Assembly (NCBI GenBank): GCA_000004985.1
Contig: GG738905.1
From: Naegleria gruberi
Lineage: Eukaryota
Length of the DNA stretch: 64,000 nucleotides
Reading direction: 5' to 3' (one strand)
Below the pieces are notes generated by a model. That model did no database searches, had not been told where the DNA came from, and saw only the letters and a list, made by a program, of their open reading frames with translations. Position numbers and translations under genes: made by a program. Positions 33,765 through 34,110 of the stretch are shown one piece after another; position 1 is the stretch's first letter; every line of letters starts with the position of its first letter.

Positions 33765-33855
33765 TTGCCGACACCAGGGATCGAACCAGGGACCTTAAGA
33801 TCTTCAAGATTCAATGGCTTATTAGACCAACGCTCTCCCAACTGAGCTATGTCGG
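33765..33855 (-). tRNA. tRNA-Ile(AAU)-like gene carrying an 18-nt insertion in the 3' strand of the anticodon stem (non-canonical intron, or a disrupted gene)
   Basis: The reverse complement is gccgaca-ta-gctc-agttggga-gagc-g-ttggt-cTAATAa-gcca[ttgaatcttgaagatctt]a-aggtc-cctgg-ttcgatc-cctgg-tgtcggc-a. Removing the bracketed 18 nt restores the anticodon stem ttggt/gccaa and a 73-nt cloverleaf matching eukaryotic tRNA-Ile-AAU. The insertion is not at the canonical 37/38 site. Confidence 0.6.
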
Positions 33856-34110
33856 CTTCTTGAAATTTAAGATATTTAATAAGCAATATACTAAGCATCG
33901 TTATATGTCTTTGCTTACTAATTCAACATTTCTCTTTCATAGTCTTCCTTCATTCTTTTAAAGTAGTGTCATTGAGTTCTAAGCTGTCACGTTCCTCACT
34001 TATGTAACACTATGAAATGATTGTAACCTTGGAACTTTAAGTTCCCAATGCAATTTGAAATTAAAATTTACTAATTGTCAGCACTAAACGTTCTCAACCA
34101 ATCAAAAAAA

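What the first reader, a model, noticed from the sequence alone, without database searches (positions are those of the whole stretch)
33765..33855. tRNA-Ile(AAU)-like gene with an 18-nt insertion at a non-canonical position in the anticodon stem
All other tRNAs in the window are intron-less and canonical. This minus-strand gene has perfect acceptor, D and T arms and a cTAATAa anticodon loop, but the 3' strand of the anticodon stem is split as gcca[ttgaatcttgaagatctt]a. Only removal of these 18 nt restores the ttggt/gccaa stem. Nuclear tRNA introns in eukaryotes are almost always between positions 37 and 38. An insertion around 41-43 would be either a rare non-canonical tRNA intron (known mainly from archaea, a few algae and nucleomorphs) or a freshly disrupted or pseudogenised tRNA. 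Either is noteworthy.
Basis: seen in the sequence. Interest (0 to 1): 0.6.

Follow-up and report, generated by a model that had tools for sequence, protein, structure and literature searches.

The report
tRNA-Phe gene with grafted Ile arm
This is not a tRNA intron: one phenylalanine tRNA gene of a Naegleria-like amoeba has picked up an 18-base patch copied from an isoleucine tRNA, and this most likely just damaged one redundant gene copy.

Summary
The 91-nt tRNA-like gene at 33766-33856 (-) is real. ARAGORN calls it Ile(AAU) and Rfam scores it 52.3 bits. The intron reading fails: there is no bulge-helix-bulge motif, strict or relaxed, at any 18-nt excision, and no workable 37/38 placement. The decisive evidence is the orthologous locus in a sibling strain (ENA metagenome contig L021, flanks about 95-99% identical). 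There the gene is a canonical 73-nt tRNA-Phe(GAA), and an identical paralog sits on L022. Compared with that gene, the window has 18 extra bases, TGGTCTAATAAGCCATTG, right after T27, followed by three substitutions (AAGAC to AATCT). The other 68 positions are identical. The patch rebuilds a complete tRNA-Ile(AAU)-type anticodon stem-loop, the same arm as in 20 intron-less tRNA-Ile genes from metagenomes. Best explanation: a recent, strain-specific templated insertion (out-of-register template switch or ectopic conversion from a tRNA-Ile gene) into a redundant tRNA-Phe gene. The copy is probably still transcribed but probably defective. Function was not tested. It is a modest curiosity, not a new intron class.

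The parts
33766..33856 (-). Whole 91-nt chimeric tRNA gene, computationally called tRNA-Ile(AAU)
   Evidence: ARAGORN. Rfam RF00005 gives 52.3 bits. The ortholog L021 1707-1779 is a 73-nt tRNA-Phe(GAA) scoring 67.9 bits.
33830..33856 (-). nt 1-27: 5' acceptor strand, D arm, G26 and T27. This part is inherited from tRNA-Phe.
   Evidence: Identical to L021 and L022 tRNA-Phe. Coordinates checked.
33838..33849 (-). A-box-like internal promoter element, TAGCTCAGTTGG
   Evidence: Read from the sequence. Identical in the canonical ortholog. Promoter function is inferred from general Pol III knowledge.
33812..33829 (-). The 18 nt actually added: TGGTCTAATAAGCCATTG. With T27 it forms the Ile(AAU)-type anticodon stem-loop plus the first variable-loop bases.
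   Evidence: Pairwise alignment with the orthologous locus. The same string occurs in 19 of 20 metagenomic tRNA-Ile(AAU) genes.
33821..33823 (-). AAT anticodon of the grafted arm
   Evidence: ARAGORN; coordinates checked.
33807..33811 (-). AATCT, where the ortholog has AAGAC (Phe positions 28-32). The three clustered substitutions abolish the Phe anticodon stem.
   Evidence: Pairing was judged by inspection.
33796..33806 (-). TGAAGATCTTA: remnant of the tRNA-Phe anticodon loop (U33, GAA, G37, A38) and the 3' anticodon stem TCTTA
   Evidence: Identical to L021 and L022.
33766..33795 (-). Variable loop AGGTC, T arm (with U51.U63), 3' acceptor strand and discriminator A73, all inherited from tRNA-Phe. 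It includes the B box GGTTCGATCCC at 33777-33787.
   Evidence: Identical to L021 and L022.
33760..33763 (-). TTTT run 3 nt downstream of the gene, a probable Pol III terminator
   Evidence: Read from the sequence. Present in the ortholog as well. The other four tRNAs of the window also have T runs downstream.

Best explanation
The gene is a tRNA-Phe(GAA) gene of a Naegleria-like heterolobosean that suffered a recent, strain-specific complex insertion.

What changed: immediately after T27, 18 nt (TGGTCTAATAAGCCATTG) were added and the next five bases changed from AAGAC to AATCT. The added bases are the anticodon stem-loop, plus the first variable-loop bases, of a tRNA-Ile(AAU) gene.

Most likely mechanism (inferred): a repair or replication template switch, or an ectopic conversion, that entered a tRNA-Ile gene through the D-arm homology (...AGAGCGT) and came back out of register by microhomology. 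The result keeps the tRNA-Phe acceptor, D and T arms. It carries a new Ile-type anticodon hairpin. It drags the leftover Phe loop and 3' stem along as a 23-nt variable region that can form only a weak hairpin.

Likely consequence (inferred): the A box, B box and T-run are intact, so it is probably still transcribed. The product has lost the GAA anticodon that PheRS needs and has an abnormal core. It is therefore most likely a defective, dispensable copy in a genome with many tRNA genes. It is not an intron-containing gene.
For: Shown:
- The orthologous locus L021 is collinear with window 35102-29719 at about 96-99% identity, and 95% over the 371 columns around the gene. It carries a canonical 73-nt tRNA-Phe(GAA) (67.9 bits).
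- An identical tRNA-Phe lies on L022, so the canonical gene is the ancestral state.
- The window differs from it only by the 18-nt gap and 3 adjacent mismatches. There are 0 differences in the other 68 columns, against 13 differences in 280 flank columns.
- The arm TTGGT-CTAATAA-GCCAT followed by TG is the arm of 20 intron-less tRNA-Ile(AAU) genes with at least 7 different bodies. In those genes U27.U43 is the normal state.
- ARAGORN, Infernal and MAFFT all place the extra length outside the Ile-type arm.
- There is no BHB motif.
- The extra hairpin is weak: -3.2 kcal/mol, and 9% of shuffled inserts fold as well.
- The Rfam score drops from 67.9 to 52.3 bits.

Background: N. gruberi is reported to have 924 tDNAs (PMC2888827), so redundancy is plausible.
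Against: - No tRNA-Ile(AAU) gene from this organism was recovered, so the donor is inferred from other eukaryotes' genes. Those genes were retrieved with a pattern containing 18 nt of the arm, so only the following ATTG and their being genuine tRNA-Ile genes are independent evidence.
- The 7 junction bases AATCTTG are not explained by a single switch.
- Nothing here measures transcription, processing or charging.
- The rest of the gene is unmutated, and the three substitutions happen to lengthen the extra hairpin from about 3 to 7 pairs. Both facts would also fit a retained, functional RNA.
- The gene lies 135 nt from a 50-N scaffold gap, so the local assembly quality is unknown.
Confidence: 0.72

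Rival explanations
1. A functional class-II-like tRNA. The 91-nt RNA folds as a cloverleaf with the Ile-type anticodon arm and a long variable arm, and it reads Ile codons. It could be charged by IleRS (a new tRNA-Ile gene made by arm grafting, that is, an alloacceptor shift in progress). Or it could be mischarged by LeuRS or PheRS, as nematode nev-tRNAs are mischarged.
For: - ARAGORN draws exactly this fold, with a 7-bp variable stem and a 5-nt loop. The cloverleaf with that arm evaluates at -25.9 kcal/mol, against an MFE of -28.5.
- The A box, B box, T-run and all 68 non-patch positions are intact.
- A73, and A37 and A38 in the loop, are present.
- The three substitutions AAGAC to AATCT turn three mismatches into pairs in the variable stem (by inspection).
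- nev-tRNAs show that class I anticodons on tRNAs with a variable arm can be expressed and charged (PMC3333845).
Against: - The variable hairpin is AU/GU-rich and marginal: -3.2 kcal/mol, p about 0.09 against shuffles. The GC-rich arm of the sibling strain's tRNA-Ser is quite different.
- The hairpin sequesters A44-U47 of the original AGGUC loop.
- The allele is absent from the sibling strain and no second copy was found.
- A 23-nt variable region lies above the 15-16 nt reported for nev-tRNAs.
- There are no expression data.
Confidence: 0.14
2. A non-canonical (or canonical 37/38) tRNA intron that the tRNA splicing endonuclease removes to give a 73-nt tRNA-Ile(AAU).
For: Removing nt 43-60 gives a perfect TTGGT/GCCAA stem and an AGGTC variable loop. 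The length then becomes 73 nt.
Against: - There is no BHB: 2 of 4 central pairs and 1-bp flanking helices.
- No relaxed BHB works for five alternative excisions, and no strict BHB exists anywhere in the RNA (0 of 1680 pairs).
- A 37/38 placement leaves a U.U at 31:39 and a 3-of-5 anticodon stem (and inspection).
- The apparent restoration is explained by descent. A43 and AGGTC are the tRNA-Phe's own bases, and T27 is shared by both arms.
- The ortholog is an uninterrupted tRNA-Phe, not an intron-less tRNA-Ile.
Confidence: 0.03
3. An assembly or sequencing artefact: a chimeric path or read through repeated tRNA sequence near a scaffold gap.
For: - tRNA genes are repeats.
- The gene is 135 nt from the 50-N gap at 33582-33631.
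- The allele was seen only in this assembly. The only two database ORFs found over this gene type are canonical.
Against: - Both flanks belong to the same locus.
- The junction string CCATTGAATCTTGAAG is in neither a tRNA-Phe nor any tRNA-Ile seen. A graph mis-join between the two gene types could not create it, and a mis-join would normally give a normal-length hybrid with a foreign flank.
Confidence: 0.08

Closest known systems
tRNA anticodon (alloacceptor) shifts, or tRNA remolding, detected by synteny (Rogers and Griffiths-Jones 2014, PMC3923123)
   Same: Orthologous tRNA genes, identified by conserved flanks in closely related genomes, carry anticodons of different amino acids: Phe GAA versus Ile AAU. 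It happens in a genome with high tRNA gene redundancy.
   Different: The published shifts are almost all single-base anticodon substitutions (71 of 75) in normal-length tRNAs. Here the change is an 18-nt templated patch that brings in a whole foreign anticodon arm and leaves the old half-arm in place. Retention of function is unknown.
[quoted passage not shown] 2012, PMC3333845)
   Same: A class I anticodon (Ile) sits on a tRNA with a long variable region and A73. ARAGORN folds the gene as a class-II-like cloverleaf.
   Different: nev-tRNAs are conserved across nematodes, multi-copy and mostly derived from tRNA-Leu. They have a 15-16-nt V-arm and are shown to be expressed and leucylated. This gene is a single strain-specific allele derived from tRNA-Phe, with a 23-nt variable region whose hairpin is weak. 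Nothing about its expression is known.
Non-canonical BHB tRNA introns of Archaea (PMC8450103) and, from my own knowledge, of Cyanidioschyzon merolae and nucleomorphs
   Same: Extra nucleotides lie outside position 37/38 of a tRNA gene.
   Different: There is no bulge-helix-bulge motif, no conservation in the ortholog, and the extra bases have an identifiable tRNA origin.
Ectopic (intergenic) gene conversion among dispersed tRNA genes, for example the S. pombe serine tRNA genes (from memory: Amstutz et al. 1985; not checked here)
   Same: A short tract of sequence moves from one tRNA gene to an unlinked one through shared tRNA homology.
   Different: Those events are in register, between near-identical isoacceptor genes. 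This one is between different acceptor families and out of register at its 3' end, giving a net +18 nt.
Ordinary tRNA pseudogenes or degenerate tDNA copies
   Same: One copy of a multi-copy family carries a disruptive mutation and a lowered covariance-model score.
   Different: Apart from the patch it is unmutated, and its promoter and terminator elements are intact. The disruption creates a well-formed heterologous anticodon hairpin rather than random decay.

Membership tests
tRNA intron (archaeal or non-canonical eukaryotic, BHB-dependent) | Splice sites lie in two 3-nt bulges separated by a 4-bp helix (bulge-helix-bulge, or the relaxed hBH/HBh' forms) | tested here: not met
tRNA intron (canonical eukaryotic) | Intron between positions 37 and 38, with an intact 5-bp anticodon stem and an anticodon-intron pair | tested here: not met
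   the best 37/38 options have 3 of 4 central pairs and no 31:39 pair. The resulting stem TTGGT/TCTTA pairs at only 3 of 5 positions (by inspection).
tRNA intron (any) | A spliced mature RNA lacking the insert exists | not testable with these tools
   No RNA data are available.
Class II / nev-type tRNA (long variable arm) | A stable stem-loop in the variable region (15-16 nt in nev-tRNAs) | tested here: inconclusive
   ARAGORN draws 7 bp (3 of them G-U) plus a 5-nt loop. The energy is only -3.2 kcal/mol, and 9% of shuffled inserts fold as well. The variable region is 23 nt. The sibling strain's tRNA-Ser arm is GC-rich.
Class II / nev-type tRNA (long variable arm) | Conserved across related genomes and present in several copies | tested here: not met
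   The ortholog in the sibling strain is a class I tRNA-Phe. No other copy was found in the protein-ORF search or in the window.
Class II / nev-type tRNA (long variable arm) | Expressed and aminoacylated | not testable with these tools
   This needs tRNA-seq, northern blots or charging assays.
tRNA-Phe(GAA) gene | Body (acceptor, D arm, T arm, A73) of the species' tRNA-Phe, at the orthologous position | tested here: met
   68 of 68 non-patch positions are identical to L021 and L022 tRNA-Phe, and the flanks are collinear.
tRNA-Phe(GAA) gene | GAA anticodon presented in a 7-nt loop on a 5-bp stem | tested here: not met
   GAA is still present, but its 5' stem strand is now G-AATC-T. Only 2 of 5 pairs remain (and inspection).
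tRNA-Ile(AAU) gene | Ile-type anticodon stem-loop with AAU, A37 and A38 | tested here: met
   TTGGT-CTAATAA-GCCAT is identical to 20 metagenomic tRNA-Ile(AAU) genes.
tRNA-Ile(AAU) gene | Body descended from, or matching, the organism's tRNA-Ile genes | tested here: not met
   By descent the body is tRNA-Phe. The organism's own tRNA-Ile genes could not be retrieved for comparison.
Alloacceptor anticodon shift | Syntenic orthologs with anticodons of different amino acids | tested here: met
   Window AAU versus L021 GAA at the same locus.
Alloacceptor anticodon shift | The shifted gene remains a functional, normal-length tRNA | tested here: inconclusive
   The length is 91 nt and the CM score falls by 15.6 bits. 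Function was not tested.

The most novel reading that the evidence does not exclude
The chimeric gene is expressed and used. On this reading, a tRNA-Phe body has acquired Ile decoding in one step by grafting a whole heterologous anticodon arm, with the old half-arm tolerated as a long variable arm. That would be a natural, polymorphic alloacceptor switch by arm transplantation. It could make a new tRNA-Ile or a mistranslating tRNA, analogous to but independent of the nematode nev-tRNAs.
Probability: 0.12. Interest if true: 0.6.

Novelty: new variant of a known kind. Interest (0 to 1): 0.3.

Why it matters
The main value is as a correction. The feature looks like a rare eukaryotic non-canonical tRNA intron, and gene finders would annotate it as tRNA-Ile. 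By descent it is a tRNA-Phe gene carrying a patch templated from another tRNA.

It also documents sequence exchange between tRNA genes of different acceptor families, out of register, caught while still polymorphic between closely related strains. If the RNA proved stable and charged, it would be a natural test case for two questions. One is how far anticodon-arm transplantation alone can switch tRNA identity. The other is how much extra variable-region length a class I tRNA body tolerates.

Tried and rejected
1. BHB intron. I enumerated all boundary pairs and relaxed bulge and helix sizes for five 18-nt excisions. None worked.
2. Canonical 37/38 intron. Rejected.
3. A selected long variable arm. 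The shuffle test is not significant (p about 0.09).
4. Insert as a repeat or mobile fragment. There is no other copy of the 22-mer, 16-mer or junction 14-mer in the window beyond chance.
5. Synteny with N. fowleri. Only the oligopeptidase B gene is shared, and there is no tRNA in the 22-kb locus L020.
6. Exact look-up of the window's G-alpha protein. It is not on record. The F-box/LRR protein search gave only paralogs of 43% identity or less. So the window is not the annotated N. gruberi reference.
7. Scans of bacterial/archaeal genomes and of viral contigs for the arm or the D-arm-plus-arm pattern gave nothing.
8. Literature searches. I found no report of Naegleria tRNA introns and no paper citing PRJEB11402.
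9. I could not retrieve any tRNA-Ile(AAU) gene of this organism.
10. What did work was using the spurious 46-aa ORF over the tRNA as a protein query.

Full report
**What is at the coordinates.** The minus strand of 33766-33856 reads GCCGACATAGCTCAGTTGGGAGAGCGTTGGTCTAATAAGCCATTGAATCTTGAAGATCTTAAGGTCCCTGGTTCGATCCCTGGTGTCGGCA (coordinates checked).
- ARAGORN reports a 91-nt tRNA-Ile(aat).
- Rfam's tRNA model scores it 52.3 bits. The other four tRNAs of the window (Lys-UUU, Glu-UUC, Asn-GUU, Gly-GCC) score 66.9-70.9 bits, are 71-75 nt long and are uninterrupted.
- So the basic observation holds: a tRNA-like gene that is 18 nt too long, with a CTAATAA loop.
- The T arm is not perfect. It has a U51.U63 mismatch.

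**Organism.**
- The window has about 33% G+C and is gene-dense with long ORFs. It encodes eukaryotic proteins: a G-alpha subunit, F-box/LRR proteins and a PH-domain protein.
- Its oligopeptidase B is 64% identical to that of Naegleria fowleri and 46% identical to that of Willaertia magna. It is 99% identical to a protein on an ENA metagenome contig.
- The window's proteins are not among the annotated N. gruberi proteins.
- I therefore treat it as a Naegleria-like heterolobosean that is not the annotated reference strain.
- There is no local synteny with N. fowleri.

**Where the extra bases sit.**
- ARAGORN does not call an intron, even in intron mode. It draws a U27.U43 mismatch and a long variable arm: a 7-bp stem ATCTTGA/TTAAGGT with a 5-nt loop.
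- The Rfam covariance model likewise aligns GCCAU as the 3' strand of the anticodon stem and puts about 19 inserted bases in the variable loop.
- A metagenome scan with GCGTTGGTCTAATAAGCC-N(5-35)-GGTTCGATCC returned 18 contigs carrying 20 tRNA-Ile(AAU) genes with at least seven different bodies. All are 73 nt. All read GCCAT-TGGTC after the loop, except one with GCCATCGGTC.
- MAFFT puts the window's 18-nt surplus between T44 and G45 of these genes.
In this widespread tRNA-Ile arm, U27.U43 is the normal state.

**Intron test.** I enumerated every possible pair of splice sites in the RNA and scored the bulge-helix-bulge geometry: a 4-bp central helix, 3-nt bulges cut after their second base, and flanking helices.
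- Relaxing bulges to 2-4 nt and the helix to 3-5 bp does not rescue any of five neighbouring 18-nt excisions. No strict BHB exists anywhere in the RNA: 0 of 1680 boundary pairs.
- A canonical 37/38 placement leaves an unpaired 31:39 and a 3-of-5 stem.
- The intron reading is therefore not supported.

**The decisive comparison.** A spurious 46-aa ORF runs through the whole gene in frame (window 33758-33898, minus strand). I used it as a protein query, and it found two database ORFs from ENA sample ERZ929261, the same sample as the 99%-identical oligopeptidase contig.
- Contig L021 (5954 nt) is collinear with window 35102-29719 at 96-99% identity. It is 95% identical over the 371 columns around the gene. 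It is the orthologous locus of a sibling strain.
- There the gene is a canonical 73-nt tRNA-Phe(GAA): GCCGACATAGCTCAGTTGGGAGAGCG-TAAGA-CTGAAGA-TCTTA-AGGTC-CCTGG-TTCGATC-CCTGG-TGTCGGCA. It scores 67.9 bits.
- An identical tRNA-Phe lies on L022, next to a tRNA-Ser(AGA).
- The U51.U63 mismatch is present in both, so it is native to this organism's tRNA-Phe.

**What changed.**
- Relative to the ortholog, the window has 18 extra bases, TGGTCTAATAAGCCATTG, directly after T27, followed by AATCT in place of AAGAC.
- Everything else, 68 columns, is identical. The flanks differ at 13 of 280 columns.
- Together with the shared T27, the extra bases make the arm TTGGT-CTAATAA-GCCAT plus TG. That is the tRNA-Ile(AAU) arm and the first variable-loop bases seen in the metagenomic tRNA-Ile genes.
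- This also explains why deleting it seemed to restore a perfect tRNA. A43 and AGGTC are the tRNA-Phe's own bases, and T27 pairs with A43 in the original Phe arm.

**Most likely history (inferred).** Two canonical tRNA-Phe copies, at the orthologous and a paralogous site, make the canonical gene the ancestral state. The window allele is derived.
- The 5' junction lies in sequence shared by the two tRNA families (...AGAGCGT).
- The 3' junction is out of register and includes 7 bases, AATCTTG, that neither parent explains. They resemble a slipped partial copy of the following AAGATCTT.
- This fits a template switch during repair or replication, or an ectopic conversion from a tRNA-Ile(AAU) gene with a microhomology-mediated return.
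- I could not retrieve this organism's own tRNA-Ile genes, so the donor is inferred from other eukaryotes' genes. Part of their identity to the patch was imposed by my search pattern. Only the following ATTG, and the fact that they are genuine tRNA-Ile genes, are independent evidence.

**Most likely consequence (inferred).**
- The A box, B box and the TTTT run 3 nt downstream are unchanged, so Pol III transcription is likely.
- The Phe anticodon stem is destroyed: 2 of 5 pairs remain. From general knowledge, the GAA anticodon is a major PheRS determinant.
- The only good hairpin in the region is the Ile-type arm.
- The leftover sequence can pair with the original AGGU of the variable loop to form a 7-bp AU/GU-rich stem. 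Its energy is only -3.2 kcal/mol, and 9% of shuffled inserts fold as well. It would also tie up bases that normally build the tRNA core.
- N. gruberi is reported to have 924 tDNAs (PMC2888827), so losing one tRNA-Phe copy should be tolerated.
- I therefore rate "defective, dispensable copy" as most likely.

**Rivals.**
- Functional class-II-like tRNA. This cannot be excluded. The rest of the gene is unmutated, and the three substitutions happen to extend the extra stem. nev-tRNAs of nematodes show that tRNAs with a class I anticodon and a long variable arm can be expressed and mischarged (PMC3333845). But nev-tRNAs are conserved and multi-copy, whereas this allele is private to one assembly.
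- Assembly artefact. This is unlikely. Both flanks are from the same locus, and the junction string occurs in neither parent type. Still, the gene lies 135 nt from a 50-N gap, so read-level confirmation is needed.

**Comparison with known phenomena.**
- The closest concept is the synteny-defined alloacceptor anticodon shift (PMC3923123). Those shifts are almost all single-base substitutions in normal-length tRNAs.
- An out-of-register graft of a whole heterologous anticodon arm is a variant of that theme. It is also a variant of ectopic conversion among tRNA genes (recalled from the S. pombe literature, not checked here).
- It is not a member of the intron-containing tRNA class. Its membership of the V-arm tRNA class is unsupported.

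**Verdict.** The intron interpretation is rejected, and the "freshly disrupted" alternative is upheld with a corrected ancestry (Phe, not Ile). Interest is low to moderate (0.3).

Noticed in passing
L021 1091-1562, against window 34002-34013: A 472-nt segment (35% G+C) lies between the F-box/LRR gene and the tRNA in the sibling-strain contig. It has no counterpart in the window, which has only 12 nt there. This is a strain-specific indel about 145 nt upstream of the tRNA.
   Followed up: partly
window 33582-33631: The only N run in the window (50 N) corresponds to about 197 nt of ordinary sequence in L021 (1913-2109), so the scaffold gap is under-sized. It lies 135 nt downstream of the tRNA.
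   Followed up: partly
window 28565-30985 (-): An 806-aa ORF has a C-terminal bactofilin domain (Pfam PF04519, E=2e-12), which is unusual in a eukaryote. It also has internal DNA repeats: L021 5410-5954 matches window 29035-30268 several times at 67-84% identity.
   Followed up: no
L021 1707-1779 and L022 626-698; window 33774-33788: This organism's tRNA-Phe(GAA) carries a U51.U63 mismatch in the T stem (CCTGG/CCTGG) in every copy seen, so it appears to be the normal state.
   Followed up: partly
L001-L018: Twenty tRNA-Ile(AAU) genes from diverse eukaryotic metagenome contigs, with at least 7 different acceptor stems, share an identical anticodon arm TTGGT-CTAATAA-GCCAT with a conserved U27.U43 mismatch. 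One assembly (JAESGV01) carries at least 9 identical copies, some in divergent pairs on one contig.
   Followed up: partly
L022 626-860: tRNA-Phe(GAA) and tRNA-Ser(AGA) lie 81 nt apart on the same strand in the sibling strain, which suggests local tRNA gene clustering.
   Followed up: no
window 26014-27855 (-): Beyond Naegleria, Willaertia and Acrasis, the closest relatives of the oligopeptidase B gene are bacterial (cyanobacteria, Zixibacteria and others, at 40-43% identity). In N. fowleri the gene sits in a completely different neighbourhood.
   Followed up: no
window 33803-33809 and 33858-33864 (-): TCTTGAA at the patch junction is the reverse complement of TTCAAGA at -8 to -2 upstream of the tRNA gene. 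This could be a second template for the unexplained junction bases, or just chance for a 7-mer.
   Followed up: no
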